A DNA stretch of 64,000 bases from Escherichia phage JLBYU50, in sequence record OK272470.1. One strand, 5' to 3'. Positions 6,153 through 48,854 of the stretch are shown one piece after another. Numbering within the stretch: the first letter of the stretch is position 1; the number at the start of each line of letters is the position of its first letter. The notes under the pieces were generated by a model. It saw only the letters and a list, made by a program, of their open reading frames with translations. It was not told the DNA's origin and made no database searches. Made by a program: the position numbers and the translations under genes.

Positions 6153-6430
6153 TACTTATTCCTTTTGTTGTTGATCACATCTAAAGCTGTGTAAGGTTTG
6201 TTTGTACCGCTGTATTCAAGAATAATTGGTGCATGTTCATAGACCAACTCAAAAGTACCATACACAGAATCTGCAACTGAAATAAGCATTTCAGTGCCTT
6301 CATCGTTCTTAATTAATGAAAACCTTGCCCCTGGTTTATTTAGCACTTCATATTTCTTACCTGCTGTCAGCAAACCTGAATACCATTCATTTTGCACAAC
6401 AGACAAACACTTCAGATAGGTTTTTCTCAT
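6152..6430 (-). CDS. hypothetical protein (92 aa)
   Basis: ORF track. Confidence 0.4.
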   Translation of the reverse strand: MRKTYLKCLSVVQNEWYSGLLTAGKKYEVLNKPGARFSLIKNDEGTEMLISVADSVYGTFELVYEHAPIILEYSGTNKPYTALDVINNKRNK

Positions 6431-6768
6431 TTCTTTTTGCTCCTTCTTTTAGGCTTCTCGTATAAACCTAACACAGCAGACTCTTTTGCACAGATAGGAA
6501 CTGACTTCATTCCTCGTTTTTTAGCTTCTGGTAGATTCAAAACCCACCAGCCAAACCAGTACAATTCATCTTCTGTGAAAGGATCTGCCATAGGATCTGC
6601 ATCACGTGCTTCAAATTTAGCAAGAGCTTCTTCTATCTTTTCTATTGGAGTATCAAAGACAAAAGCCTCTGTGTCAAATTTTTGTTTCTTAGGAGCGGCT
6701 TTTGCCGCCCCATCTTTAGATGCGCGCTTTGTTACGGATCGCTTCTTCGGTGTTTTCGCCATCAACAA
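6427..6768 (-). CDS. hypothetical protein with highly basic N-terminus (possible nucleic-acid binding)
   Basis: ORF track; KKRSVTKRASKDGAAKAAPKKQK lysine-rich tail and KRRSKKK C-terminus. Confidence 0.45.
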   Translation of the reverse strand: MLMAKTPKKRSVTKRASKDGAAKAAPKKQKFDTEAFVFDTPIEKIEEALAKFEARDADPMADPFTEDELYWFGWWVLNLPEAKKRGMKSVPICAKESAVLGLYEKPKRRSKKK

Positions 6769-6955
6769 CCTCCATGCGGTGTAAGAAATCTTGCTGGAAT
6801 CGCCAATACTGTTGACCAGTCCTTACATCTTCGTAGATCACAACAGGATCAAATACTTTAGATACACCCGCTGGTTTAGGAAAGCCAACTACACGATATA
6901 AACCGCCTTTGCTAATACAAGAATATGTTACATCAGTTAAAATTTCTTTTTTCAT
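6716..6955 (-). CDS. hypothetical protein (79 aa)
   Basis: ORF track. Confidence 0.4.
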   Translation of the reverse strand: MKKEILTDVTYSCISKGGLYRVVGFPKPAGVSKVFDPVVIYEDVRTGQQYWRFQQDFLHRMEVVDGENTEEAIRNKARI

Positions 6956-11438: not shown

Positions 11439-11514
11439 GGTTCCATAGCTCACTGACGAGAGCGCACACCTCATAAGTGTCGAGGGCAGGGATTGTAACC
11501 CTGGGGAACCACCA
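11439..11514 (+). tRNA. tRNA with CAT anticodon (Met/Ile-type), non-canonical D- and T-loops
   Basis: complete cloverleaf: acceptor GGTTCCA/GGGAACC, D-stem GCTC/GAGC, anticodon loop CTCATAA, T-stem CAGGG/CCCTG, encoded ACCA; T-loop is ATTGTAA rather than TTCRANY. Confidence 0.45.
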
Positions 11515-11545
11515 TTTAAAAGGAGGTGCTATGCATCTCCTATAT

Positions 11546-11631
11546 GCAAGTGTGGTGGAATTGGTGATACACATTGTGCTTAAAACGCAACGCTTAAATG
11601 CTTGAGGGTTCGAATCCCTCCACTTGCACCA
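11546..11631 (+). tRNA. tRNA-Leu (anticodon TAA)
   Basis: acceptor GCAAGTG/CACTTGC, anticodon loop CTTAAAA, long variable arm, T-loop GGTTCGAATCC, ACCA encoded. Confidence 0.8.
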
Positions 11632-11647
11632 ACACCTAAAAAAATAT

Positions 11648-11677
11648 CTTGACATTTACTTAGTTTTTTGTTATAGT
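11648..11677 (+). promoter_or_regulatory. sigma70-like promoter inside tRNA array
   Basis: TTGACA 11648-11653, 18-nt spacer, TATAGT 11672-11677. Confidence 0.45.
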
Positions 11678-11687
11678 TACTATGAAA

Positions 11688-11769
11688 ACGGGGTGTATCT
11701 CACCTGACTTCTAATCAGGCGTTAACCGAGTAATTGGAGTATGCAGGTTCGAATCCTGTCACCCCGGCC
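11688..11769 (+). tRNA. atypical tRNA-like gene, anticodon hairpin reads TCT (Arg-type)
   Basis: perfect acceptor CGGGGTG/CACCCCG, canonical T-arm GCAGG-TTCGAAT-CCTGT, GCCA 3' end, perfect hairpin CCTGA-CTTCTAA-TCAGG; no conventional D-arm fits between acceptor and this hairpin. Confidence 0.4.
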
Positions 11770-11787
11770 AAAAAGTTTTAAAAACTA

Positions 11788-11817
11788 CTTGACAAGCAAG
11801 ATAGTTTTATGTTAGAT
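11788..11817 (+). promoter_or_regulatory. sigma70-like promoter inside tRNA array
   Basis: TTGACA 11788-11793, 18-nt spacer, TAGATT 11812-11817. Confidence 0.4.
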
Positions 11818-11833
11818 TTAAAGTATAATAACT

Positions 11834-11923
11834 GGAAGGTAGGGCGCAGCGGTGCGCAACCAGGTTTGAACCCTGGCCCATTGTAGCGATACGGTGATGG
11901 TTCGACTCCATTATCTTCCTCCA
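11834..11923 (+). tRNA. tRNA-Ser (anticodon TGA)
   Basis: acceptor GGAAGGT/ATCTTCC, anticodon stem CCAGG/CCTGG with loop TTTGAAC, long variable arm, T-loop TTCGACT, TCCA 3' end. Confidence 0.7.
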
Positions 11924-11929
11924 AATTCA

Positions 11930-12094
11930 ATGAGTGATTTTATGAATTATAAAACTATTGGACAGGTTGTTACCGGAGTTAAGATTGTAAATAATAAAGT
12001 TGTTTATGAGTATTCTAATCTTCAACAATCTGAAGATGGTAAGAATATTCGTATGGTAAAAGAAGAACAAAAAGATTCCGGTTGTTTTGAATAA
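11930..12094 (+). CDS. possible small protein (54 aa) between tRNA genes
   Basis: ORF-track ORF 11894..12094 starts inside the tRNA-Ser; first ATG after the tRNA is at 11930; no clear RBS. Confidence 0.25.
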   Translation: MSDFMNYKTIGQVVTGVKIVNNKVVYEYSNLQQSEDGKNIRMVKEEQKDSGCFE

Positions 12095-12102
12095 TTAAAA
12101 AC

Positions 12103-12188
12103 GGTAGATTGGTGAAATGGTAGCCACAACAGTTTGCTAAACTGTCGTCGGAAACGGCGTGTAGGTTCAAGTCCTACATCTACCGCCA
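12103..12188 (+). tRNA. tRNA-Ser (anticodon GCT)
   Basis: acceptor GGTAGAT/ATCTACC, anticodon stem ACAGT/ACTGT loop TTGCTAA, long variable arm, T-arm TAGG-TTCAAGT-CCTA, GCCA. Confidence 0.8.
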
Positions 12189-12315
12189 AGTTATCTTTAA
12201 TGTAGCTTGTCATCTTACTTTAATAGAGTAAACTTTCGGCAGATGGCCCCCCACCATCTTACCGATATCCCATAGTCAAGTGCCGCAAACACTGGCTATT
12301 TTAAAGATAATTTAT

Positions 12316-12391
12316 ACATCGTTAGCTTAGTTGGTAGAGCAAGGGGCTTTTAACTCCAAGGTCGAAGGTTCGAATCCTTCACGATGTACCA
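12316..12391 (+). tRNA. tRNA-Lys (anticodon TTT)
   Basis: acceptor ACATCGT/ACGATGT, D-arm TAGCTTAGTTGGTAGAGC, anticodon loop CTTTTAA, T-loop GGTTCGAATCC, ACCA. Confidence 0.75.
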
Positions 12392-12396
12392 AACAC

Positions 12397-12483
12397 GTAG
12401 GTATCGCATAGCGGCAATTGCTGGAGACTGTAAATCTCTTGCCCTTCGGGGCTTCGTTGGTTCGAGTCCAACTACCTGCACCA
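12397..12483 (+). tRNA. tRNA-Tyr (anticodon GTA)
   Basis: acceptor GTAGGTA/TACCTGC, anticodon loop CTGTAAA, long variable arm, T-arm GTTGG-TTCGAGT-CCAAC, ACCA. Confidence 0.75.
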
Positions 12484-12490
12484 AATTAAA

Positions 12491-12575
12491 GATGGATTGG
12501 CCTAGTGGTTGGGCGACGGACTGTTAATCCGTGAACGAAAGTTCTAGCAAGGTTCAAATCCTTGATCCATCGCCA
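12491..12575 (+). tRNA. tRNA with GTT anticodon (Asn-type) carrying a long variable arm
   Basis: acceptor GATGGAT/ATCCATC, anticodon stem ACGGA/TCCGT loop CTGTTAA, 15-nt variable hairpin GAAC-GAAA-GTTC, T-loop GGTTCAAATCC, GCCA. Confidence 0.55.
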
Positions 12576-12580
12576 AATAG

Positions 12581-12646
12581 TGCTTGTAGAGTTAATAGAA
12601 ACCTCTAGAATTTTCTAGAATTGTAGGTATCAAATCCTACCAAGCA
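12581..12646 (+). other. degenerate tRNA-like remnant
   Basis: acceptor-like TGCTTG/CAAGCA and T-arm-like GTAGG-TATCAAAT-CCTAC, but no foldable anticodon arm and no CCA. Confidence 0.25.
12604..12620. repeat. tandem direct repeat TCTAGAA-TTT-TCTAGAA
   Basis: two copies of TCTAGAA (each containing palindromic TCTAGA) separated by TTT, read directly at 12604-12620. Confidence 0.7.
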
Positions 12647-12654
12647 AATATTTT

Positions 12655-12729
12655 GCTCCTATCGTATAACGGCTATTACGGTTGCCTTGTAAGCAACTTA
12701 TCAGGGTTCGAGTCCTTGTGGGAGCACCA
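12655..12729 (+). tRNA. tRNA-Thr (anticodon TGT)
   Basis: acceptor GCTCCTA/TGGGAGC, anticodon stem GTTGC/GCAAC loop CTTGTAA, T-loop GGGTTCGAGTCC, ACCA. Confidence 0.8.
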
Positions 12730-12751
12730 ATTTAACTCTAAAGGAGTGTAT

Positions 12752-13075
12752 GTGACAGAAAAAGAGTTAGAGGAATATTTTAATATCAATGTTTTCGATG
12801 GTTTTGATGATATTGAAGATGTTGAAAGATATTATGAAGTAGAGTTAGATAAGGATAACATTGTAATTCTTTCTGCAACTTATGATTGTGCATATTATGA
12901 AGGCGAATCTCACGTTTATTTTTATGATATGAAAACATCTTTGTTTTATGAAGTACACGCATATCATTGTTCTTGTTATGGCTTAGAAGGTCAGTGGGAA
13001 CCTGAAGAAATAGGTGATTTGGACTTTACTATTGCATATCTAAACAGACGTGGTGCATCTACTATTTTAAAATAA
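12752..13075 (+). CDS. hypothetical protein (107 aa)
   Basis: ORF-track ORF 12653..13075 starts inside tRNA-Thr; start re-set to in-frame GTG at 12752, 5 nt after AAGGAG. Confidence 0.4.
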   Translation: MTEKELEEYFNINVFDGFDDIEDVERYYEVELDKDNIVILSATYDCAYYEGESHVYFYDMKTSLFYEVHAYHCSCYGLEGQWEPEEIGDLDFTIAYLNRRGASTILK

Positions 13076-13089
13076 ATATCAAAAGCCTC

Positions 13090-13119
13090 TTGACAAAGGG
13101 GCTAATAATATGTTAGAGT
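13090..13119 (+). promoter_or_regulatory. sigma70-like promoter inside tRNA array
   Basis: TTGACA 13090-13095, 18-nt spacer, TAGAGT 13114-13119. Confidence 0.4.
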
Positions 13120-13130
13120 AATATTGTTAA

Positions 13131-13205
13131 GCGGGTATAGTGTTAATGGTAGCATATGAGGTTTCCACCCTCCAGGTGCAGGTTCAAGTCCTGTTACTCG
13201 CTCCA
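13131..13205 (+). tRNA. tRNA-Gly (anticodon TCC)
   Basis: acceptor GCGGGTA/TACTCGC, anticodon loop TTTCCAC, T-arm GCAGG-TTCAAGT-CCTGT, TCCA. Confidence 0.75.
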
Positions 13206-13304
13206 AGATTATTTAAATGGAATCGCTAGAGAAAATTTCTCTTTTCGCTCATGGTTTTCTCCTTCAAACTCTAGCGGTTCTTTTTAAGTGATTTTTAGTT
13301 TTAT

Positions 13305-13379
13305 TGGAGATTAGCCTAGTGGGAAGGCAACGGCCTTTGAAGTCGTGATGACTAGGTTCGATTCCTAGATCTCCAGCCA
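13305..13379 (+). tRNA. tRNA-Gln (anticodon TTG)
   Basis: acceptor TGGAGAT/ATCTCCA, D-arm GCCTAGTGGGAAGGC, anticodon loop CTTTGAA, T-arm CTAGG-TTCGATT-CCTAG, GCCA. Confidence 0.8.
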
Positions 13380-13386
13380 ATATTTA

Positions 13387-13462
13387 CAGTGCGTAGCGCA
13401 GTTGGTAGCGTGGGAGCCTTGGACGCTTCAGGTCGCAGGTTCGAGTCCTGCCGCACTGACCA
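13387..13462 (+). tRNA. tRNA-Pro (anticodon TGG)
   Basis: acceptor CAGTGCG/CGCACTG, D-arm GCGCAGTTGGTAGCGT, anticodon loop CTTGGAC, T-arm GCAGG-TTCGAGT-CCTGC, ACCA. Confidence 0.8.
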
Positions 13463-13467
13463 AATTT

Positions 13468-13542
13468 GCAGAGATAGCTGAGACGGATTAGTGCTACCCT
13501 GAAAAGGTAGAAAGGATGGATCGTTACCATCTCTCTGCACCA
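13468..13542 (+). tRNA. tRNA-Phe (anticodon GAA)
   Basis: acceptor GCAGAGA/TCTCTGC, anticodon stem CTACC/GGTAG loop CTGAAAA, T-stem GATGG/CCATC (loop ATCGTTA), ACCA. Confidence 0.7.
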
Positions 13543-13617
13543 AATATCACCATCCAAGGAGTAGACTTGGTTAACTGTCAATAGCACATTGAGGCTTCTT
13601 ACAGTGGTGTATTTTAT

Positions 13618-13702
13618 GGCTAAGTGGTGGAATGGTATACACGATACGCTTAGAACGTATTGCCCCAAGGGATTGTGAGTTCGAGTCTCACCTTAGCTAC
13701 CA
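13618..13702 (+). tRNA. tRNA-Leu (anticodon TAG)
   Basis: acceptor GGCTAAG/CTTAGCT, anticodon stem ATACG/CGTAT loop CTTAGAA, long variable arm, T-arm GTGAG-TTCGAGT-CTCAC, ACCA. Confidence 0.8.
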
Positions 13703-13780
13703 TATCTAAGAGATATCATAGGGTTTGCAACGGATATCTACCGTCCTGTTAAGGATACCACGCCAAGACGGGTTATAAAG

Positions 13781-13856
13781 GGTTAGCCATTGATAGTGTG
13801 AAGCTGGCGTTTCGAGTGCTTTCATAAGGCATTGCGAGAAGAGTTCGATCCTCTTA
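13781..13856 (+). tRNA. tRNA with CAT anticodon (Met or Ile-lysidine type)
   Basis: perfect acceptor TGATAGT/ACTATCA, anticodon loop TTCATAA, T-arm AAGAG-TTCGATC-CTCTT, ACCA. Confidence 0.65.
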
Positions 13857-13871
13857 CTATCAACCAAATTA

Positions 13872-13950
13872 TTACAGATTGTGCGGGATAGAGGAGTCTG
13901 GTCGTCCTCGCCAGTTTCATATGCTGGAGATCATCGGTTCGAATCCGATT
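13872..13950 (+). tRNA. tRNA with CAT anticodon (Met or Ile-lysidine type), 1:72 mismatch
   Basis: acceptor TGCGGGA/TCCCGCC with unpaired first position, anticodon loop TTCATAT, T-arm ATCGG-TTCGAAT-CCGAT, TCCA. Confidence 0.6.
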
Positions 13951-13994
13951 CCCGCCTCCAATAAATACCTCCCTTCTGGTGTAATGATTAAGTT

Positions 13995-14091
13995 ACATTG
14001 ACACTTCAAGGAACTCATAGCCGGGTAGATTTAAAAGAGTATGGTACTCAATATGGCTCCAAACCATAGATCAGGGGGTTCGATTCCTCAC
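13995..14091 (+). tRNA. tRNA-like element with Trp-type anticodon arm (CCA); 5' half non-canonical
   Basis: perfect anticodon arm TATGG-CTCCAAA-CCATA, T-loop GGTTCGATTCC, GCCA 3' end; no 7-bp acceptor partner at the expected distance, only a 5-bp CAAGG/CCTTG pairing about 40 nt upstream. Confidence 0.35.
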
Positions 14092-14106
14092 CTTGCTGCC
14101 AATTAT

Positions 14107-14182
14107 TGTGGTATCGTACAGATGGTTAGTACACTCGACCGATAATCGAGAAACAACGGTTCGACTCCGTTTACCACGACCA
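14107..14182 (+). tRNA. tRNA-Ile (anticodon GAT)
   Basis: acceptor TGTGGTA/TACCACG, D-arm GTAC-AGATGGTTA-GTAC, anticodon stem CTCGA/TCGAG loop CCGATAA, T-arm AACGG-TTCGACT-CCGTT, ACCA. Confidence 0.75.
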
Positions 14183-25476: not shown

Positions 25477-26883
25477 ATGGCAACTTTTCGTGATAAGGTA
25501 GTTTCCGTAACCCTTACCTACGGTGCTACTTCAATTAGTGAAACACAGTTTGATATCCCTCTAATTCTTACAGGGCATAACGTTACTGGCAATCTTGTAG
25601 ATTATTTCACTTCTTCAGACGCACTTCTGCAAGCAGGTTTTGGCACTGCCGATCCAGCTTATAAAATGGCAAAACTACTATTTGACGGTCTGTTCGCACC
25701 AGAACAAGTTATCGTCGGTAAGCGTGATGTTTCTAAAACAACTCTAACTCCAGTAGTTGAAGATAGTGCAACTTACGTTATCACTATTAAAGCAAATTCA
25801 AAAAGCAAGGACTTCAAGTTTGTTGCCGATGATACTGCAACTGCTCAAGAGATTGTTGTTGGTTTAACAGAAATGATCAACGCAGACGTAGTGTATAAAG
25901 AATTTTTCACTGTGTCAAACGATGGTAGTGTTATCACTGTAACCCCAGTTGCAGGTAAATACGCTACTATGGATAGTTCAGGATTCACAACTAATGTAGA
26001 ATATGCAAATGATATCTTAGAAGATATTGCTAAAATTGCAGACTATGAAAACAGTTGGTTCTGGTTACTATCTGATTCTCACGCAGAACAAGATATTATC
26101 GATCTAGCAGGTTATGTAGAAGAGCACGATAAAGTGTATTTCTTCTCTACCTCGCAACCAGGTGTTCTAACTAAAGAAGAAGATAACATTCTAGAACGCT
26201 TAGGTGATATGGGCTACAATAACACTTGTATGGCATTGTGGATGACTAACGCTGACACAGTGTTCCCAGAGGCTGCTGTAGTTGGTTCTATCTGCTCTGC
26301 AACACCAGGTACTACTACCCTGCATGGTAAAACCCTTGTTGGTATCGAGATTGAAAAACTTGGTCAGACAGCAGAAAACTTTATTGTTCAACAGAATGGT
26401 AATATTTACCGTAAAGAACACGGTGTTCTGTTCTACCGTGATGGCTTCATGGTTAGTGGTTTCTATGTTGACTATGTGGTACACGCTCTGTGGTTCAAAG
26501 CTCGCGTAGAAGAATCTCTGTTCGCTCTATTCAAACAGCAATCTATGCTTGGTAGTGGTGTTAGAGCAACTTCTGCTGGTCTTGCTTTGATTCGTCAGGC
26601 TGTTACTGCAAACCCAATCCAAGTAGGTATTAACAATGGTTCTATTGCCAATGAGGTAGTAACTTCAGAGGAAACAGGACTTCTGGTAAGCCTTAAACCT
26701 ACTATCTATATCCCATCTCGTGCAGATATGACTGATGCTCAAATCAATGCACGTTTGGTTGATGGTATGGTTATTGAATACGTATATGCTGGATTCTTCC
26801 ACTATGTTAAAGTGCAGGTAAACGTTCTGACGAACCGCACTGCAAATAGCCAGAATTCCAATAGCTCTACTGTATCTTCATAA
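25477..26883 (+). CDS. tail sheath protein (by size and position)
   Basis: 468-aa ORF immediately upstream of a 159-aa tube-sized ORF, then chaperone and tape measure: canonical contractile-tail order. Confidence 0.55.
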   Translation: MATFRDKVVSVTLTYGATSISETQFDIPLILTGHNVTGNLVDYFTSSDALLQAGFGTADPAYKMAKLLFDGLFAPEQVIVGKRDVSKTTLTPVVEDSATYVITIKANSKSKDFKFVADDTATAQEIVVGLTEMINADVVYKEFFTVSNDGSVITVTPVAGKYATMDSSGFTTNVEYANDILEDIAKIADYENSWFWLLSDSHAEQDIIDLAGYVEEHDKVYFFSTSQPGVLTKEEDNILERLGDMGYNNTCMALWMTNADTVFPEAAVVGSICSATPGTTTLHGKTLVGIEIEKLGQTAENFIVQQNGNIYRKEHGVLFYRDGFMVSGFYVDYVVHALWFKARVEESLFALFKQQSMLGSGVRATSAGLALIRQAVTANPIQVGINNGSIANEVVTSEETGLLVSLKPTIYIPSRADMTDAQINARLVDGMVIEYVYAGFFHYVKVQVNVLTNRTANSQNSNSSTVSS

Positions 26884-26941: not shown

Positions 26942-27421
26942 TTGGATAAAATGCTTACTGGCGTAATGGCCTATGATCCTTCTCAAGTAATCCTGTCTTT
27001 GGGTGGTTGGGAACCTTGGGGTTTCGCCGCAGATACCAAAATTGTTATTAACAAAACTAACGATATTATCAACCCATATTCAGGTACTGATGGTGACGTT
27101 TCCTTGGCGCTTAGTCGTAACCGTTTAGGTACGCTAACAATGTCACTGCAACGTACTTCCCCAGCAAACGAAGTTCTTGCTGCTTATGCACAAACGATGT
27201 ATTCTACTCGTCAAGTAGCATTTAGCGTATATCTAGAAGACCCTCGCGGATATTATATCAGCACAATTGGTTGGATTCAAAGCCAACCGGACGACACTAT
27301 TGGTGAAACTATTCAAGAAAACCAATGGGTAATTGGTCTTAAAGATGCAAGCCTACTTCGTTCTACTGTAGGTGTTGGTGTTAACGCACTTAACTCTATT
27401 AGTGCTCTAACTATTCAGTAA
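26942..27421 (+). CDS. tail tube protein (by size and position)
   Basis: 159-aa ORF after sheath gene; AAAGGAG RBS; followed by terminator. Confidence 0.5.
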   Translation: MDKMLTGVMAYDPSQVILSLGGWEPWGFAADTKIVINKTNDIINPYSGTDGDVSLALSRNRLGTLTMSLQRTSPANEVLAAYAQTMYSTRQVAFSVYLEDPRGYYISTIGWIQSQPDDTIGETIQENQWVIGLKDASLLRSTVGVGVNALNSISALTIQ

Positions 27422-27424
27422 CAA

Positions 27425-27450
27425 AAAGGGCAGAAATGCCCTTTATTTTT
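27425..27450 (+). terminator. rho-independent terminator after tube gene
   Basis: AAAGGGCA-GAAA-TGCCCTTT followed by ATTTTTA. Confidence 0.6.
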
Positions 27451-27464
27451 AAAGAGAGGAAATA

Positions 27465-27947
27465 ATGGAACAACAAAAAGATAATACTATTGCAAAATTT
27501 GCTCGTCCAGAAGTAATGGTTGAAATTGATCTGGATGAAGGACGCAGTGTAAAATTTAGAGTTCTCAAGTGGAGTCCAACTAAAGTTTTTGAAAGGATTC
27601 CAGAACTAGGTAGTGTACTAGCTGTTCCTATGACAATGTATAATACTGCTCTTATGTCAGCAGATGAAGATCTAGAAGCTCGTATTGCTATGGCGCTGAT
27701 CCAGTTATTCAGTGGTCTGGAAGAAAAAAACTTAGCCGCATTCTTACGTAAAATTTTAGATGAAGTTTACACAGAAGCAGGTCACAGTGTTTCCGATAAT
27801 TTTGATGAATTGTTTTTTGCTCACCCAGAATTAGTTGTTGACTTAGCTGCAAAAGTTCTTGAGGTGAACTATGCCCCTTTTTTCAAACGAGGTTTCGGAA
27901 AACTGTTGACCCAATTTCAAGGAATAGAGACTCTAGCGAAGAGTTAA
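27465..27947 (+). CDS. tail assembly chaperone (short, in-frame product)
   Basis: 160-aa acidic ORF between tube and tape-measure genes. Confidence 0.5.
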   Translation: MEQQKDNTIAKFARPEVMVEIDLDEGRSVKFRVLKWSPTKVFERIPELGSVLAVPMTMYNTALMSADEDLEARIAMALIQLFSGLEEKNLAAFLRKILDEVYTEAGHSVSDNFDELFFAHPELVVDLAAKVLEVNYAPFFKRGFGKLLTQFQGIETLAKS

Positions 27948-28222
27948 GTCCGGCAATTAAATCAGCAATTGAAATTGCCTCACAAACCCTTAGCTTGACA
28001 TGGTATGAAGTAATTCTTTGTAAGGTAATTAAGAATACCTCCGAAACCTTGTCCTCGTTAGATAATTACGGTGTAGATTATCTACTTAAAATTTATGAAT
28101 ATTTAACATTTGAAGACTATGTACAAGATCTTCACGTTAAAGATGCGGATATTAAACGTGGTCAACAGAGAACAATAAGAGAACTGGATACGGCTATGAA
28201 AAAATTAATTCCAGATTCATAA
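27465..28222 (+). CDS. tail assembly chaperone, predicted -1 frameshift fusion product
   Basis: joins 27465..27884 to -1 frame 27884..28222 (no stops in the shifted frame across 27878-27995). Confidence 0.4.
27878..27884 (+). other. slippery heptamer T_TTT_TTC (candidate -1 programmed frameshift site)
   Basis: X_XXY_YYZ heptamer in the zero frame of the chaperone gene; the -1 frame is open from here to 28222. Confidence 0.45.
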
Positions 28223-28241: not shown

Positions 28242-30221
28242 TTGTTAGAAATTAACACTTCCAAGATTAAGAATACAGTAACGTTTACTGTAGATAAAGA
28301 CAGTTTAAAAAATACTAAAGACGCAATTAAAAACCTTAAAACTTTTACAGAATCTATTGAACCATCTTTAAATATGACTAAAATGCGTCGTCAGTTTAAA
28401 AGTATGGAAGAGTATGCTAAAAGAATAAGGCAGCAAATGTCAGGTCTTGGCGGCGGTAATCCTCCACCAATCCCACCAACCGGAGGTTCAAGTGGTGGTG
28501 GAAAAGGAGGAAGTGGCAGAGGTGGTTCTGGATCTTCTGGAGGACGTAAGACACCGGAGGAAAGAGCCGCAGAAGCCGCCGCTAAACGTGCAGCACTTGC
28601 TAATATGAAGCAAGACGATTTTAGTTTTAAAGCTATGCCTTTTACAAAAGCAGACAGCAGAATTCTAGAAAAATCTAAAAAGATTGTAGAAGAAACTCTT
28701 GAACTTTATCGTAAAGGCGTGATTACTAGCCAACAAATGAACAATACTTTGGCTAGACAGTTAGAAGAACTACGCAGATCTCATAGAGAGAAGAATGCAC
28801 AACTTCTTGATGAAGAGAGAGCTAGACGTAGAATTGCCCGTCTGCAAGAAGCAGAAGATAAAAGAAGACAGCGTGTTCGAGAAAGAGAAAGAAAGGAGTT
28901 CGAACGTCAGCAAAGGAGAGAAAAAGAAGCAAGACAGCGAGATAGACAACGTAAGCTATCTGGTGTAGGTAATGCTGCTATTGCTCTTAACCCTGCTATG
29001 TTTGGTGCTGCTCTTTTAGGTGCTGGTTTATATCAAGGCATAAGCAAAATAGCTGAAAGTATCACAACTGCGGCAGAACGTATTAATATGGTTAGTAAAG
29101 GTGGTCAGAACGTACAGGTAAACCCTAATGCAATTTTAACAATGCGTACTTGGGGTGAGATGAACGGTGTAGACTCTGCCAGCATTATTAAAGCCATTGA
29201 CAATATTAAAGACGTTCGTGAACGTTTAGGTAATACTGTACTCCACTCTGAATTTGATGAAAAATCAGGTAAATGGAAAGGTGGAGATAGTGGTATTAAT
29301 GAAATCATGAACCAATTTGGTTGGTCGAAAGAAGATGTTGCTAAATTCCAGAACAGACCTTTAGACTTTGTTCAAGCACTTGTTAATGAAGGTCAAAAAA
29401 GAGGAATGAACTCCGCGCAAATTGGTCGTTTGATGGAAAACCTTGGTGATGACTTAATGCACTACCAACGTATGTTTTTGGATAACGGTAAAGAGTACAT
29501 GAAAGTCTTGGATATGTTAAAAAATTCAGGAGCCACTCTTAACGATGAAAACATCAAAGCAGCACAAGATTTTGTTAAGCTAAGAGCACAAATTAGTGCA
29601 GCAGGAGAAGGTTTTACCAATAACTTACTTATAGGATTTATGGATGGTTTAAAATCTGCACCAGATTTTGCAGAGAATATGAAAACTTTCCAAGAAGCTG
29701 CTCGTGGTCTTGGTGAAATGTCTGGTAGTATTGTAAGTAGCCTTGCAAAAATTGCGAAATATTTCCTTGATTTTTCAAATAAGGTTGGGCCAAAAAACAA
29801 TACTAAAGAAGCTGTAAGAGATTATTATAATGGTACGCAGTATGGGTACGATGCACAGGTTGGTGGTAATCCTTGGGCTTATTGGCCTATTGGAAGAGAT
29901 CAACATCTACCTGAAAATCAACCTTTAGGTAACTTTGATAGTAGTTTCTTAACTAGTGCCTTAAACCCAAGTGCTTCTAGTATCGGTTACAATAGACCTG
30001 ATTTAACAGCATCTATGCTAACACCACGCCAAGGTGTTCCAGTACCGTTAAGTGTAGAGAATACGGTTGTTATCCCAGACAACGCATTCCAGATTAATGT
30101 TATTCCAGATGGCTATGGTTTTAGTAATTATCTAGATGCGACAATGAATACCAGTTTTAGTAACTTCTCACAAGGCTTAACTCTTCAGTTAAGCAGTGGA
30201 CAATCTTCTACTGGTGGTTAA
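28242..30221 (+). CDS. tail tape measure protein
   Basis: 659-aa ORF after chaperone pair; Gly-rich tract GGGNPPPIPPTGGSSGGGKGGSGRGGSGSSGG, Arg/Glu-rich coiled coil; TTG start after ACGGAGGA. Confidence 0.65.
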   Translation: MLEINTSKIKNTVTFTVDKDSLKNTKDAIKNLKTFTESIEPSLNMTKMRRQFKSMEEYAKRIRQQMSGLGGGNPPPIPPTGGSSGGGKGGSGRGGSGSSGGRKTPEERAAEAAAKRAALANMKQDDFSFKAMPFTKADSRILEKSKKIVEETLELYRKGVITSQQMNNTLARQLEELRRSHREKNAQLLDEERARRRIARLQEAEDKRRQRVRERERKEFERQQRREKEARQRDRQRKLSGVGNAAIALNPAMFGAALLGAGLYQGISKIAESITTAAERINMVSKGGQNVQVNPNAILTMRTWGEMNGVDSASIIKAIDNIKDVRERLGNTVLHSEFDEKSGKWKGGDSGINEIMNQFGWSKEDVAKFQNRPLDFVQALVNEGQKRGMNSAQIGRLMENLGDDLMHYQRMFLDNGKEYMKVLDMLKNSGATLNDENIKAAQDFVKLRAQISAAGEGFTNNLLIGFMDGLKSAPDFAENMKTFQEAARGLGEMSGSIVSSLAKIAKYFLDFSNKVGPKNNTKEAVRDYYNGTQYGYDAQVGGNPWAYWPIGRDQHLPENQPLGNFDSSFLTSALNPSASSIGYNRPDLTASMLTPRQGVPVPLSVENTVVIPDNAFQINVIPDGYGFSNYLDATMNTSFSNFSQGLTLQLSSGQSSTGG

Positions 30222-46098: not shown

Positions 46099-46440
46099 AT
46101 GGAGCTAACAGAAGTATGGGATATCGCTAAAGAGGCGATTATCCCTCTTATTGGCGTAATCTGGGTGGTCTTCAAACAGAAGATAGATGATATGGCAAGT
46201 GATTTGGATAAAATGGAAGACAAATACCGCGAACTAGAAAAGAAGTTGGTGTTTGTTGAATCCACTTATGCTACCAAAGCGGAACTTGCTCAAATGCTTA
46301 ACCAGATCAACTCTACATTAATGGCAAATAACACTGCCTTAGAACAGAAGATTGAAAAAATAATGGATTTAAAAAATGCTCCTGTTCAATTAATGTTAGA
46401 GGAGATTACGAAGCGCACACAAAGTAAGGACAAAAATTAA
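46099..46440 (+). CDS. small protein with N-terminal hydrophobic helix and coiled coil (113 aa)
   Basis: ORF track; IIPLIGVIWVVF segment then heptad-rich region. Confidence 0.4.
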   Translation: MELTEVWDIAKEAIIPLIGVIWVVFKQKIDDMASDLDKMEDKYRELEKKLVFVESTYATKAELAQMLNQINSTLMANNTALEQKIEKIMDLKNAPVQLMLEEITKRTQSKDKN

Positions 46441-48854
46441 TGGCGAATTTTCCAACATATCCTGCTACGACACTAGAACAAGGTGTTGATCTGGTTATAT
46501 TCTCGTCTAACCAGATGCATGATGTTATTAATGGGGATGCTACAGCAACTGTAGAAACCGAAACAGGTTTAATACCTACACTGCGTAAAGCACTTGTTGA
46601 TAACTTCTTCTTTAAGAGTCCTGTTGCTTGGTCAGCAGGATCAACTGAAACTGTATTTAACCAGTTACGTTATTTTGAAAACGGTATCTTGAGTGGGTAC
46701 TATTATGCCCCATCTGCCACTACTGCGAACCCTGTACCTATGCAGGGAACACCTGTAGGAGACAGTAACTGGACTCTGTACGCTCTTAAAACTGAACAGT
46801 TAGCTTCAGATGTGTATCCTTGGTATTTTAAAGGTGCTACAGGATATGAAACAGAAATCAGTCCTCCTTATATCTTTGATAATGCTATTGTCACCATTAA
46901 CGGTGTAATTCAGATTCAAGGTGAAGCATTTACTATCAAAGATAGTAAAATTATTCTGGCAGAACCATTAGGTTTAGATCCGTCTACTGGTCTACCTAAC
47001 AAATTGTTTGCTTTTATTGGTAAAACAACAGCCTCTACTTCTTACGTAGAGAAAAACCTTTTGTCATCCACCACTGGTGCAGCAATGGTTGGTCTTCCAT
47101 CTGGAGGCAACCTGTTACAAGCTCAATACTTTGTAACGCCTGAGCAGTTTGGTGCAATTGGTGATGGAGTTACCGATGATACTCAAGCAATTTTAAAAAC
47201 CATTACTTTCGCTAACACGAATAACATTCAAGTACGTGCAGATAAGAATTATAGATTCACAAGCTCAATTGCTATGTCTGGTATTCGTTGGTATGGTGGT
47301 ACATTCACTGGTAACGGTGGAACAATGATTTCTACTGTGTCCTGTTGGATGGAAAACGTTCGCTTTGAAAAATGTTATGTTAAGATGTTAGGTGGTGATT
47401 GCCGATTCTATCGTAATATCTTCTCCAATGCAACATCTACAGCAGCATTCTTAATGCAAGCAATGACAAGTGAAGGTACGTTGGACTTCAGTTACAACGA
47501 AATGTATGGTTGTAAATATGCGATCCTGCAACAAGGTACTGGAGAAGTAATGACCTACGGGCGTTACTCTAACAACTATATTCACGATATTAAAGGTGAT
47601 GCTATTGAACTTAACGTAGTTCAAAAACACTACACTGAAGGTTTGATTATCGAGAATAACCACATTGCTAACGTAGATGCTTCTGGACAAGGGGCAAACT
47701 GGGGTATTGGTATTGGTGTAGCAGGTAGTGGCCCATATGGTGTTGATGTTCCTGATTCACAATATGTACGTAATTTCAGTATCGTTGGGAATAGGGTTTA
47801 CAATTGCCGTCAATGTTTACACGTTGAAATGGGTAAAAACTTCACAATACGTGATAATGAAGTTTATCCTAACACAGCAGTTTCAACAGGTACAGGTTTA
47901 ACTACTTGTGGTGTTGCATTATACGGATGCCAAGATTTTGAAGTTGATGGTTTAACTGGTTATCTGCTTAATGATCCATCTGTTTCAACACGCATGGTCT
48001 TTATTGACTGGGGTGTTAACAGTGGAAGATATGCGGGGCCACCAATTAACTTTACAATTAAGAATTTGGATATTCCAGAATCTTCAATTGAGATTGCAAC
48101 ATCTGGATCAGATGACTGGGAAAACTCTACAATTGTTAGTAATATCAATTGTAATGTTTTTAAATGGCGTGGGCTACCATCTAGCTCTACCTTTAATAAT
48201 ATTCGTTGCCGTAGTATTGACTTTATTGGTCAACACGGAAGCGGAGAAGGAAGTGGTGGCGGTTTCTATACTCGCAGCCAATTCACGTATATGAAGTGGG
48301 TAGGATGTACAGCACTTAGCGGAGATGAAACAACAGTTTCTTTTGCTAAAATCTACACTGATCGTTGCGATCAGGTTGGAAATAACTTTGGTGTTCCAAC
48401 TGCTGTTGATGGTACAGGTCATCGTGGGCCAGTTTTAACTACTATTTCTGAACAATATTTTACAGCTTATGATGAATTCCCAGGTGGGCGTGAATTCCCT
48501 ACTGGAACAGTTATTCATTGTGCAAGCGGTAAAAAACATGTTGTTACAGTAGGTGGTGCTTTCTTTAGTGCCAACGAGAAAATAAAAGCAACTGTTACAG
48601 GTCAAACCTATCTACAGTCTAATGCTTTAAACTGGGCTAGTAATGGCTACGCTAAAGCAGCAGGTACTAAGATTGTTATTCCAGGTGCAGGTGCAAATGG
48701 CGGCGATCTTGTGACAACTATAGCACGTGCTACATATGTGACAAATAGTTTGTACACAATAGATATTGCAGATCCAATTGTAACACCTACAGCAGAGAAT
48801 ACACAAATTAAAGCTCTGAACCCTGTTACTTTTGTTACTGTCAATAATGCTTAA
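46440..48854 (+). CDS. tailspike with pectate-lyase-type beta-helix (depolymerase-like)
   Basis: FGAIGDGVTDDTQAI near 47147-47190, hallmark N-terminal cap of pectate-lyase-fold tailspikes; 804 aa. Confidence 0.65.
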   Translation: MANFPTYPATTLEQGVDLVIFSSNQMHDVINGDATATVETETGLIPTLRKALVDNFFFKSPVAWSAGSTETVFNQLRYFENGILSGYYYAPSATTANPVPMQGTPVGDSNWTLYALKTEQLASDVYPWYFKGATGYETEISPPYIFDNAIVTINGVIQIQGEAFTIKDSKIILAEPLGLDPSTGLPNKLFAFIGKTTASTSYVEKNLLSSTTGAAMVGLPSGGNLLQAQYFVTPEQFGAIGDGVTDDTQAILKTITFANTNNIQVRADKNYRFTSSIAMSGIRWYGGTFTGNGGTMISTVSCWMENVRFEKCYVKMLGGDCRFYRNIFSNATSTAAFLMQAMTSEGTLDFSYNEMYGCKYAILQQGTGEVMTYGRYSNNYIHDIKGDAIELNVVQKHYTEGLIIENNHIANVDASGQGANWGIGIGVAGSGPYGVDVPDSQYVRNFSIVGNRVYNCRQCLHVEMGKNFTIRDNEVYPNTAVSTGTGLTTCGVALYGCQDFEVDGLTGYLLNDPSVSTRMVFIDWGVNSGRYAGPPINFTIKNLDIPESSIEIATSGSDDWENSTIVSNINCNVFKWRGLPSSSTFNNIRCRSIDFIGQHGSGEGSGGGFYTRSQFTYMKWVGCTALSGDETTVSFAKIYTDRCDQVGNNFGVPTAVDGTGHRGPVLTTISEQYFTAYDEFPGGREFPTGTVIHCASGKKHVVTVGGAFFSANEKIKATVTGQTYLQSNALNWASNGYAKAAGTKIVIPGAGANGGDLVTTIARATYVTNSLYTIDIADPIVTPTAENTQIKALNPVTFVTVNNA

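What the first reader, a model, noticed from the sequence alone, without database searches (positions are those of the whole stretch)
27465..28222. Probable -1 programmed ribosomal frameshift producing a long tail assembly chaperone
Seen: the slippery heptamer T_TTT_TTC (27878-27884) lies in the zero frame of the 160-aa gene between tube and tape-measure genes. The -1 frame is open from the heptamer through to the stop at 28222; the ORF track only shows its distal part from 27995. Established: contractile and long-tailed phages commonly make G and G-T chaperones by a -1 frameshift at this position. Inference: two chaperone isoforms here.
Basis: partly seen in the sequence, partly recalled or inferred. 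Interest (0 to 1): 0.5.

Follow-up and report, generated by a model that had tools for sequence, protein, structure and literature searches.

The report
Frameshifted tail chaperone in phi92-like phage
This phi92-like E. coli phage almost certainly makes a short and a long tail-assembly chaperone from one gene by a -1 ribosomal slip at U_UUU_UUC, an ordinary and expected phage trick that public genome annotations of this phage group have missed.

Summary
T_TTT_TTC (27878-27884) lies in phase in the 160-aa gene 27465-27947. This gene is phi92 gp132, a Pfam Phage_TAC_15 protein, and sits between the tail tube and tape-measure genes. The -1 frame is open from 27863 to the stop at 28222, giving a predicted 252-aa long isoform.

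Comparative evidence is strong. All 71 related loci not cut by a contig end (58 unique sequences; Stephanstirmvirinae, Vequintavirinae, Acinetobacter and Aeromonas phages, down to about 25% protein identity) keep the same in-phase TTTTTTC and an open -1 frame of 108-149 codons. Synonymous variation is 0.00-0.01 at the three heptamer codons against 0.48 overall. The "intergenic" stretch 27948-27994 evolves with coding periodicity in the -1 frame. The first possible start codon of the downstream ORF moves between 90 and 255 nt past the heptamer and falls inside a conserved domain.

No significant downstream RNA structure was found. An SD-like GAGG 13 nt upstream is common but not universal.

This is a new member of a known kind (lambda G/GT, P2 E/E+E'). 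None of the 25 annotated records I read joins the two ORFs. No protein-level evidence exists, and transcriptional slippage on the T6 run is not formally excluded.

The parts
27456..27459 (+). Shine-Dalgarno GAGG of the chaperone gene
   Evidence: Read from the sequence. It corresponds to the RBS feature the phi92 authors annotated for gene 132.
27465..27947 (+). Short isoform ORF (TAC-N, 160 aa, 18.1 kDa), equivalent to phi92 gp132
   Evidence: ORF. Pfam Phage_TAC_15 E 1.6e-22, residues 29-144. phrog_3840 'tail assembly chaperone' E 4e-54. Mass.
27861..27866 (+). SD-like GAGGTG, 13 nt (from GAGG) upstream of the heptamer; possible dnaX-type upstream stimulator (inferred)
   Evidence: A match of at least 4 nt to GGAGG at this position occurs in 45 of 58 unique relatives. 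It uses the Glu codon GAG although this genome uses GAA 80% of the time. Thirteen sequences lack it.
27875..27881 (+). Accessory in-phase slippery heptamer C_CCT_TTT, overlapping the main one
   Evidence: Present only in the Stephanstirmvirinae-like loci. C_CC.U_UU.U is listed among shift-prone motifs in E. coli (PMC4066793). It gives the same product, APFFQ.
27878..27884 (+). Main slippery heptamer T_TTT_TTC (P-site UUU, A-site UUC, both read by tRNA-Phe)
   Evidence: In phase. Invariant in 71 of 71 complete related loci. Synonymous diversity is 0.01/0.00/0.00 at its three codons against 0.48 overall.
27884..28222 (+). -1 frame extension (112 aa plus stop). Long isoform = join(27465..27884, 27884..28222), 252 aa, 28.8 kDa
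   Evidence: Translation, mass. The fusion alignment shows the conserved RFR motif and the AI..A....LSLTWYEV domain beginning upstream of any start codon.
27884..27947 (+). Dual-coding overlap (0-frame tail KRGFGKLLTQFQGIETLAKS; -1 frame QTRFRKTVDPISRNRDSSEEL)
   Evidence: The 0-frame third positions of GGT TTC (27891-27896) are frozen (synonymous diversity 0.00 and 0.02). They are first positions of the conserved -1 frame F and R.
27891..27911 (+). Weak hairpin 6 nt after the heptamer; not supported as a stimulator
   Evidence: -4.6 kcal/mol. The region folds no better than shuffles (z +0.26). No covariation, broken in Klebsiella phage 05F01, absent in Vequintavirinae.
27948..27994 (+). Stretch annotated as intergenic in public records; coding in the -1 frame
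   Evidence: Pairwise mismatch by -1 frame codon position is 0.31/0.18/0.625. This matches the flanking coding regions (0.26/0.14/0.50 and 0.26/0.18/0.51). No stop in any relative.
27995..28222 (+). ORF as called by gene finders (phi92 gp133, 75 aa, 'hypothetical protein'); the distal part of the long isoform
   Evidence: The 20 nt before the TTG have no SD. The phi92 authors annotated no RBS for gene 133. phrog_16039, unknown function.

Best explanation
The window comes from a phi92-like Justusliebigvirus, a myovirus of E. coli. Gene 27465-27947 encodes the tail assembly chaperone.

Most ribosomes read through to the TAA at 27945-27947 and make the 160-aa short form (TAC-N). A minority slip when UUU (27879-27881) is in the P site and UUC (27882-27884) in the A site. 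Both tRNA-Phe molecules move back one base, onto UUU 27878-27880 and UUU 27881-27883. Decoding then resumes at CAA 27884 in the -1 frame and runs to the TAA at 28220-28222. The result is a 252-aa long form (TAC-NC). Its N-terminal 140 residues are those of the short form. Its C-terminal 112 residues include the ORF now annotated separately as gp133.

By analogy with lambda gpG/gpGT and P2 gpE/gpE+E', both forms would coat the tape-measure protein (28242-30221). The C extension of the rare long form would recruit tail tube subunits, and neither form would stay in the virion.

Shown here: the sequence anatomy, family membership, and the evolutionary constraints on the heptamer and the -1 frame. 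Inferred: that the slip is ribosomal, that its efficiency is low, what the C extension does, and that the upstream SD-like GAGG may act as a stimulator.
For: 1. Anatomy: an in-phase U_UUU_UUC lies 15 nt after the -1 frame opens and 69 nt before the 0-frame stop.

2. Identity: Pfam Phage_TAC_15 above its curated cut-off. PHROG 'tail assembly chaperone'. The gene sits between the tube (gp131) and the tape measure (gp134).

3. Conservation: 18 GenBank relatives and 47 IMG/VR loci all keep the in-phase TTTTTTC and an open -1 frame of 108-149 codons. Overall this is 71 of 72 loci held (58 unique sequences), and the one exception is cut by a contig end. They cover Stephanstirmvirinae, six Vequintavirinae genera, Acinetobacter ABPH49 and Aeromonas 4L372XY. 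Protein identity falls to about 25%. In the Aeromonas phage the -1 frame opens only 3 nt before the heptamer, which pins the shift site.

4. Synonymous sites: diversity is 0.01/0.00/0.00 at the heptamer codons against 0.48 overall. The preceding residue varies (Pro CCT, Cys TGT, Ser TCT or AGT) but its codon always ends in T.

5. The -1 frame is translated upstream of any start codon. 27948-27994 shows coding periodicity. A conserved RFR motif follows directly after the shift, and the conserved domain starts before the first start codon. That first start codon sits anywhere from 90 to 255 nt past the heptamer in different phages and has no SD.

6. Database proteins for the downstream ORF are all 64-84 aa fragments covering only 55-72% of the -1 frame extension.

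7. U_UU.U_UU.C and C_CC.U_UU.U belong to the H_HH.U_UU.Y class, measured as efficient -1 motifs in E. coli and used by IS elements (PMC4066793).

8. gp132 and gp133 are not among the phi92 virion proteins modelled by cryo-EM, as expected of chaperones (PMC13450770).

9. The same recoding, with an invariant GTTTTT motif, has been argued for the related Vandenendeviridae and Andersonviridae (PMC12846349).
Against: - No protein, ribosome-profiling or reporter data exist for this phage group in the library searched.
- No significant or covarying downstream RNA structure was found, and no Rfam frameshift element.
- The upstream SD-like element is missing in 13 of 58 unique sequences.
- Conservation of a T6 run is equally what transcriptional slippage would need.
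- No natural single-ORF fusion was found to serve as a Rosetta stone.
- Fold evidence is weak. Single-sequence AlphaFold2 models gave pLDDT 66 for TAC-N and 46 for the C part. The best PDB fold match is the HK97 tail assembly chaperone 2OB9, but at E 0.26.
Confidence: 0.85

Rival explanations
1. Transcriptional slippage. RNA polymerase occasionally adds one extra U while copying the T6 run (27878-27883). A fraction of mRNAs then carry U7 and encode the long form in a single frame. The two isoforms are the same, but the step that changes frame is different.
For: The conserved element is a homopolymer run, and one extra U gives exactly the -1 frame. All constraints seen on the run would also be needed for slippage. 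Sharma et al. attribute the depletion of U7 and A7 in all three frames of E. coli genes possibly to transcriptional slippage (PMC4066793).
Against: The run is exactly six T in all 58 unique sequences and never longer. From my own knowledge, not tested here, productive slippage by bacterial RNA polymerase is documented mainly on runs of about 8-9 or more. Selection for slippage would be expected to lengthen the run in at least some lineages. The run is always a perfect X_XXY_YYZ heptamer of an experimentally efficient class. Most relatives carry an SD-like element at the spacing that stimulates ribosomal -1 shifts.
Confidence: 0.07
2. Two separate genes. gp133 is translated on its own, either from TTG 27995 or by re-initiation after the stop at 27947, as the public annotations imply. 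On this view the heptamer is an accident of the conserved Phe-Phe.
For: Gene finders call a 75-aa ORF from TTG 27995. Most GenBank records annotate a separate hypothetical protein. The Phe-Phe dipeptide is invariant at the protein level.
Against: There is no SD before TTG 27995, and the phi92 authors annotated no RBS for gene 133. The first start codon in this frame lies anywhere from 90 to 255 nt past the heptamer among relatives, often deep inside the conserved domain. The 'intergenic' 27948-27994 evolves as coding sequence in the -1 frame and never contains a stop. Invariance of Phe-Phe does not explain zero synonymous change at TTT and TTC, nor the T at the third position of a variable preceding codon. 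Annotators disagree on this ORF: it is absent, split in two, or given different starts in different records.
Confidence: 0.05
3. The heptamer and open frame are conserved, but the long product has no function: a frozen relic or tolerated noise.
For: No functional data exist for this phage group.
Against: Purifying selection acts on the -1 frame protein over its full 112 codons across lineages that share only about 25-30% identity. The arrangement matches a system shown to be essential in lambda (PMC5009743).
Confidence: 0.03

Closest known systems
Bacteriophage lambda gpG / gpGT tail assembly chaperones (Levin et al. 1993; Xu, Hendrix and Duda 2004, 2013, 2014; summarised in PMC5009743)
   Same: Gene pair directly upstream of the tape-measure gene. 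[quoted passage not shown] No strong RNA stimulator is evident. The products are expected to be absent from virions.
   Different: The heptamer is U_UUU_UUC (tRNA-Phe) rather than G_GGA_AAG (tRNA-Lys). The phage has a contractile tail. There is no detectable sequence similarity to lambda G or T, and the Pfam family is different (Phage_TAC_15). Efficiency and stoichiometry are unknown here.
Phage P2 gpE / gpE+E' (myovirus counterpart of G/GT; PMC5009743)
   Same: Contractile-tailed phage. The chaperone pair lies between the tube and tape-measure genes, with a -1 shift on a T-rich run.
   Different: The proteins are unrelated at sequence level (no P2 GpE family hit). P2 efficiency is reported as 2-3 fold higher than lambda; nothing has been measured here.
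TAC-N / TAC-NC locus of Vandenendeviridae (phage Adele, Pakpunavirus) and Andersonviridae, with an invariant GTTTTT motif (PMC12846349, Dec 2025)
   Same: The argument and the pattern are the same: the downstream 'hypothetical protein' is really the C-terminal part of TAC-NC. The -1 frame is uninterrupted in all genomes, and there is a conserved poly-T motif at the 3' end of TAC-N. That paper places Vequintavirinae and Stephanstirmvirinae as relatives of these families. The Vequintavirinae context here, G TTTTTT C, contains GTTTTT.
   Different: That paper analysed the TAC locus only in Vandenendeviridae and Andersonviridae, not in the phi92 or rV5 groups. phi92-like phages have CCCC before the T run, which creates a second overlapping heptamer. 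I did not align the two sets, so homology of the sites is inferred.
E. coli dnaX gamma/tau frameshift signal (upstream SD-like element, heptamer, downstream hairpin)
   Same: An SD-like GAGG/GGAGG lies about 12-13 nt 5' of the heptamer in 45 of 58 unique sequences, at a spacing that is stimulatory for -1 shifts (the spacing rule is from my own knowledge of Larsen et al. 1994).
   Different: No stable or conserved 3' hairpin. The SD-like element is not universal, and it also encodes the conserved residues Leu-Glu-Val.
T4-like tail assembly chaperones (Vladimirov, Gautam and Davidson 2022, as described in PMC10885494)
   Same: The same functional need for a short and a long chaperone form.
   Different: Some T4-like phages are reported to carry separate short and fused long genes rather than a frameshift. 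Here there is a single copy plus an overlapping -1 ORF, and no fused gene was found.

Membership tests
G/GT-type frameshifted tail assembly chaperone (Xu et al. 2004 criteria) | Located between the major tail (tube) gene and the tape-measure gene, on the same strand | tested here: met
   Tube 26942-27421, chaperone 27465-27947, tape measure 28242-30221. Identities of gp131 and gp134 are confirmed by cryo-EM (PMC13450770).
G/GT-type frameshifted tail assembly chaperone (Xu et al. 2004 criteria) | Second ORF overlaps the 3' end of the first in the -1 frame and lacks its own start codon and RBS near the overlap | tested here: met
   -1 frame open 27863-28222 with an 85-nt overlap. The first start codon is TTG 27995 with no SD.
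G/GT-type frameshifted tail assembly chaperone (Xu et al. 2004 criteria) | Canonical X_XXY_YYZ slippery heptamer in phase inside the overlap | tested here: met
   T_TTT_TTC 27878-27884, plus C_CCT_TTT 27875-27881. The motif class is efficient in E. coli.
G/GT-type frameshifted tail assembly chaperone (Xu et al. 2004 criteria) | Arrangement conserved among divergent relatives, with selection on the slip site and on the -1 frame | tested here: met
   71 of 71 complete loci. Synonymous diversity 0.00-0.01 at the heptamer. Coding periodicity in 27948-27994.
G/GT-type frameshifted tail assembly chaperone (Xu et al. 2004 criteria) | Two proteins sharing an N terminus are actually made in a fixed ratio, and both are required for tail assembly | not testable with these tools
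   No proteomic or genetic data were found for gp132/gp133.
Pfam PF21822 Phage_TAC_15 / PHROG 3840 (tail assembly chaperone) | Score above the curated family threshold | tested here: met
   80.8 bits against a cut-off of 22, residues 29-144. phrog_3840 E 4.4e-54.
Tail assembly chaperone fold (e.g. HK97 TAC, PDB 2OB9) | Significant structural similarity of the N-terminal domain | tested here: inconclusive
   The single-sequence AlphaFold2 model has pLDDT 66. 2OB9 is the top Foldseek hit, but at E 0.26 with TM 0.32-0.50. A PDB profile search gave only a marginal hit, 5ir0, at E 0.085.
dnaX-type stimulated -1 frameshift signal | Upstream SD-like element about 10-14 nt from the heptamer | tested here: inconclusive
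   Present in the window (GAGG 27861-27864) and in 45 of 58 unique relatives, absent in 13. It is confounded by the conserved Leu-Glu-Val coding.
dnaX-type stimulated -1 frameshift signal | Stable downstream hairpin or pseudoknot 5-9 nt after the heptamer | tested here: not met
   z-scores of +0.26, +1.63 and +0.21 in the window. Consensus folds have no compensatory changes and differ between subfamilies.
Programmed transcriptional slippage site | Long homopolymer run (typically about 8-9 or more A or T in bacteria; threshold from my own knowledge) | tested here: not met
   The run is exactly T6 in all 58 unique sequences.
T4-like arrangement (separate short and fused long chaperone genes) | A second gene encoding the N domain fused in frame to the C domain | tested here: not met
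   There is no such ORF in the locus. All database homologues of the C part are 64-84 aa and none carries a TAC domain.

The most novel reading that the evidence does not exclude
The frameshift cassette may be more than a bare heptamer. Three features are frozen over an order-level span of myoviruses (Stephanstirmvirinae and Vequintavirinae here; a GTTTTT motif is reported for Vandenendeviridae and Andersonviridae).

- An invariant U_UUU_UUC.
- A nearly invariant AAC codon 9 nt upstream, and a frequent SD-like element further upstream.
- An invariant CGGUUUCG 6-9 nt downstream.

There is no detectable RNA structure. This could reflect a structure-independent stimulator not yet described, such as the conserved nascent peptide (L-E-V-N-Y-G-x-F-F) or a linear mRNA-ribosome contact. 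The phage's own tRNA-Phe(GAA) and tRNA-Pro(UGG), encoded side by side at 13387-13542, could tune the slip during infection.
Probability: 0.1. Interest if true: 0.55.

Novelty: new member of a known kind. Interest (0 to 1): 0.27.

Why it matters
Mostly as a correction. phi92 is a structurally well-studied model myovirus, and its relatives (Justusliebigvirus, Phapecoctavirus, rV5-like Vequintavirinae) are widely isolated for phage therapy. A tblastn search found the locus in 370 GenBank phage records. In the 25 annotated records I read, the downstream part is a free-standing "hypothetical protein", is split, or is left unannotated.

Recognising join(27465..27884, 27884..28222) has three practical consequences:
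- It removes an orphan gene.
- It assigns a role to PHROG 16039.
- It gives a concrete junction peptide (VLEVNYAPFFQTR) and a silent knockout (CCC TTC TTC) for testing tail-length determination in this group.

The absolute invariance of U_UUU_UUC at about 25% protein identity is also a clean natural example of a structure-less, Phe-tRNA-based -1 signal. It would be useful for training frameshift predictors.

Tried and rejected
- Downstream stimulatory RNA. I folded 27885-27960, 27878-27930 and 27885-28010 and four relatives. None was more stable than shuffles beyond about 1 sd. RNAalifold on 6 Stephanstirmvirinae and 12 Vequintavirinae sequences gave weak consensus folds that differ between the groups and have no helix-supporting covariation. 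Rfam gave only two sub-threshold hits, both on the minus strand. Rejected as evidence for a stimulator.

- The other in-phase heptamer, A_AAA_AAC at 27725. The -1 frame stops after 6 codons and the motif is not conserved. Rejected.

- A +1 frame alternative. That frame is open for only 7 codons around the stop. Rejected.

- A natural fused homologue as a Rosetta stone. One large-database search with the 112-aa C part returned 17 proteins of 64-84 aa and no fusion.

- Records with higher tblastn E-values (phi1_175008, ECO340P2) looked as if they might be single-frame fusions. Their sequences show the ordinary two-frame arrangement.

- Structure. Single-sequence models of the two halves were of moderate and poor confidence. 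The fold search was not significant, and PDB sequence searches were marginal or empty.

- Literature. No paper in the library mentions a frameshift in phi92, rV5, PVP-SE1 or phAPEC8 chaperones. The nearest is PMC12846349, for sister families.

- Other long -1 runs in the window null scan (47971-48294 and 6392-6784) are shadow ORFs.

- One paper reading timed out and was repeated. One had a malformed term.
Full report
**Source of the window.** The segment 26900-28300 is 99.4-99.9% identical to Escherichia phage phi92 and its close relatives (BME3, vB_Eco_J-01, Paula, alia and others). These belong to genus Justusliebigvirus, subfamily Stephanstirmvirinae. In phi92 numbering:
- 25477-26883 is the tail sheath gp130.
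- 26942-27421 is the tail tube gp131.
- 27465-27947 is gp132.
- 27995-28222 is gp133.
- 28242-30221 is the tape-measure protein gp134.

The sheath, tube and tape-measure assignments are confirmed by the 2026 cryo-EM structure of phi92 (PMC13450770).

**Check of the observation.** The sequence reads ...GAG GTG AAC TAT GCC CCT TTT TTC AAA CGA GGT... in the frame of ATG 27465. T_TTT_TTC therefore occupies 27878-27884 in X_XXY_YYZ phase. UUU is the P-site codon and UUC the A-site codon.

The -1 frame has a TGA at 27860-27862 and is then open to the TAA at 28220-28222, 119 codons. Its first ATG/GTG/TTG is TTG 27995, which is why the ORF list shows only the distal 75 codons.

Two additions:
- A second in-phase heptamer, C_CCT_TTT (27875-27881), overlaps the first and would give the same peptide.
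- The in-phase A_AAA_AAC at 27725 is irrelevant, because the -1 frame stops 6 codons later.

**Is it more than chance?** In long ORFs of this window the -1 frame carries a stop at 0.118 per codon, and in-phase XXXYYYZ heptamers occur at 0.0045 per codon. Thirty-seven stop-free codons between the heptamer and TTG 27995 have p of about 0.01. A heptamer in the 28-codon overlap has p of about 0.12.

Of 94 in-phase heptamers in ORFs of at least 100 aa, the median -1 run is 5 codons. The only other run longer than the 112-113 codons seen here (229 codons, ORF 47971-48294) lies in a shadow ORF inside a larger gene. The next-longest runs (80 and 59 codons, ORF 6392-6784) lie in a shadow ORF opposite a minus-strand gene array.

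**What the gene is.** The 160-aa protein matches Pfam PF21822 (Phage_TAC_15) at 80.8 bits against a gathering cut-off of 22, over residues 29-144. It also matches phrog_3840, "tail assembly chaperone", at E 4e-54. The family domain ends at the shift site, residue 140.

The -1 frame extension has no Pfam family. It matches phrog_16039, of unknown function.

A single-sequence AlphaFold2 model of the N part is of moderate confidence (pLDDT 66). Its best PDB fold match is the HK97 tail assembly chaperone 2OB9, but not significantly (E 0.26). The C part is predicted helical at low confidence.

**Comparative test.** A tblastn search with the reconstructed 252-aa fusion found 370 phage records. Of these, 290 have one joined place covering at least 80% of the query, and in the rows listed such places were matched in two pieces. 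I fetched 18 diverse GenBank loci:
- Klebsiella phages KP13-26, phi1_175008 and 05F01.
- phAPEC8, phiWec179 and ECO340P2.
- Avunavirus 24-2-1, Henunavirus Hena1, and Seunavirus KE22 and EspYZU15.
- rV5_ev168, Certrevirus phiTE and POP17, and Mydovirus KB57.
- SSBI34, ENT3, LTH01, Acinetobacter ABPH49 and Aeromonas 4L372XY.

I also fetched 47 IMG/VR loci. One of the two search patterns for the IMG/VR scan contained Phe-Phe, so that set is partly biased. The GenBank set is not.

In every locus not cut by a contig end (71 of 72 loci; 58 unique sequences) the same TTTTTTC is in phase. The -1 frame is open from just upstream of it for 108-149 codons. In the Aeromonas phage the -1 frame opens only 3 nt before the heptamer, which leaves no other place to shift.

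**Selection on the slip site.** Over the 58 unique sequences, synonymous diversity (pairs with the same residue but different codons) averages 0.48. It is 0.01, 0.00 and 0.00 at the three codons of the heptamer. The residue before Phe-Phe varies (Pro CCT, Cys TGT, Ser TCT or AGT), but its codon always ends in T. The run is always exactly six T, followed by C.

**Selection on the -1 frame.** Among six Stephanstirmvirinae, the stretch 27948-27994 is annotated as intergenic. Its pairwise mismatch is 0.31/0.18/0.625 at -1 frame codon positions 1/2/3. This is the same periodicity as the upstream 0-frame coding region (0.26/0.14/0.50) and the annotated gp133 ORF (0.26/0.18/0.51).

Inside the overlap, the 0-frame third positions of GGT TTC (27891-27896) never or almost never vary (0.00 and 0.02). 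They are first positions of the Phe and Arg of an R-F-R motif. That motif is conserved in the -1 frame directly after the shift in all but the Aeromonas phage.

The alignment of reconstructed fusions shows the conserved C-terminal domain (…AI..A….SL.W.D/E.L…) starting well before any start codon. The first ATG/GTG/TTG in that frame is anywhere from 90 to 255 nt after the heptamer in the different phages. The one exception is Hena1, where an ATG happens to lie 3 nt before the heptamer. None has a recognisable SD.

Consistently, database proteins for this ORF are 64-84 aa fragments covering 55-72% of the extension. Annotators omit it, split it, or start it at different places. The phi92 authors, who marked an RBS for most neighbouring genes, marked none for gene 133.

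**Mechanism.** The best-supported reading is a tandem -1 slip of two tRNA-Phe on U_UUU_UUC. It yields a 160-aa (18.1 kDa) short form and a 252-aa (28.8 kDa) long form that share 140 N-terminal residues.

Sharma et al. measured H_HH.U_UU.Y heptamers among the most efficient in E. coli. They list U_UU.U_UU.C and C_CC.U_UU.U among motifs that exceed 0.1% without any stimulator, and both are used by IS elements (PMC4066793).

I found no stimulatory RNA structure. Folds of 27885-27960 and neighbouring windows are no more stable than shuffles (z +0.26, +1.63, +0.21). A weak hairpin at 27891-27911 has no covariation and is absent outside the subfamily. The Vequintavirinae consensus fold includes the heptamer itself. 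Rfam has nothing relevant.

An SD-like GAGG (27861-27864; GGAGG in many relatives) lies about 12-13 nt upstream in 45 of 58 unique sequences. It uses the Glu codon GAG although this genome uses GAA 80% of the time. That spacing fits the dnaX-type upstream stimulator (spacing rule from my own knowledge). However, the element is absent in 13 sequences and overlaps conserved residues, so this step is only inferred.

Function is inferred from lambda G/GT, where neither product is in the virion. Both forms bind the tape measure, the T part binds the major tail protein, and a ratio of about 30:1 is critical (PMC5009743). Consistent with this, gp132 and gp133 are not among the modelled phi92 virion proteins.

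**Rival explanations.**
- Transcriptional slippage on T6 would give the same long form and predicts the same conservation. I rate it low because the run is never longer than six and is always a perfect heptamer of an efficient class. Only RNA sequencing or in vitro translation can exclude it.
- Independent translation of gp133 is contradicted by the missing and shifting start codons, the coding signal upstream of them, and the synonymous freeze on the heptamer.
- A non-functional relic is contradicted by purifying selection on 112 codons across lineages that share about 25-30% identity.

**Comparison with what is known.** This is the classical arrangement described for lambda, P2 and many other long-tailed phages (PMC5009743). 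A December 2025 paper made the same argument, with an invariant GTTTTT motif, for Vandenendeviridae and Andersonviridae. It places Vequintavirinae and Stephanstirmvirinae as relatives, but it did not analyse their chaperone loci (PMC12846349).

No paper in the searchable library mentions a frameshift for phi92, rV5, PVP-SE1 or phAPEC8. None of the 25 annotated records I read carries a joined CDS.

The arrangement differs from the one reported for some T4-like phages, which have separate short and fused long genes (PMC10885494).

**Verdict.** It is a new member of a known kind. Its value lies in correcting annotation across a large, therapeutically popular phage group and in a very clean conserved Phe-tRNA slip site. 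Interest is low to moderate. The frameshift product itself remains to be demonstrated.

Noticed in passing
window 11439-14182: A cluster of 16 tRNA genes on the + strand. It includes tRNA-Pro(UGG) at 13387-13462 and tRNA-Phe(GAA) at 13468-13542, side by side. These are the tRNAs that would read CCU and UUU/UUC at the slip site. Whether the phage tRNA-Phe affects slippage is pure speculation.
   Followed up: no
window 27425-27444: A bidirectional terminator-like hairpin (AAAGGGCAGAAATGCCCTTT followed by a T run) between the tail tube gene and the chaperone gene. Terminators are also annotated at this spot in phage Paula and phAPEC8. It would lower transcription of the chaperone and tape-measure genes relative to sheath and tube.
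   Followed up: partly
window 27422-27547, minus strand: Sub-threshold Rfam match to the SraG sRNA (36 bits against a gathering score of 50, E 2.8e-4 for the 901 nt searched). It overlaps the terminator hairpin and the start of the chaperone gene and is probably driven by the hairpin.
   Followed up: no
GenBank MG065639, MG065645, MG065656, MG065689 and others: Records labelled 'Campylobacter phage' with host Campylobacter jejuni are 99.6% identical here to phi92-like E. coli phages. Others match Phapecoctavirus and rV5-like phages. The host labels look doubtful.
   Followed up: no
L001 2528-2620 (equivalent to window about 26428-26520): The phi92 RefSeq record annotates a 'Hypothetical tRNA' inside the tail sheath coding sequence. 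ARAGORN finds no tRNA there in the window, so it is probably a spurious feature.
   Followed up: partly
window 47971-48294 and 6392-6784: ORFs of more than 100 aa that carry in-phase slippery heptamers followed by long open -1 frames. Both are shadow ORFs: the first lies inside the 804-aa gene 46440-48854, the second opposite a minus-strand gene array. They are not frameshift candidates.
   Followed up: yes
L008-L019, -1 frame extension just after the RFR motif: In Vequintavirinae the long isoform has a Gly/Ser/Asp-rich low-complexity linker of variable length between the shift site and the conserved C-terminal domain. The linker is much shorter in phi92-like phages.
   Followed up: no
window 27867-27869: The Asn codon AAC, 9 nt upstream of the heptamer, is almost never AAT in 58 unique relatives (synonymous diversity 0.04). 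The genome overall uses AAT 57% of the time. It lies upstream of the shift, so -1 frame coding cannot explain it. Unexplained.
   Followed up: partly
L024 (phage NHEP1), L006, L009, L016, L020, L022, L023: Public annotations of the downstream ORF are inconsistent. It is missing in seven records read, split into two tiny ORFs in NHEP1, and given different start codons elsewhere.
   Followed up: yes
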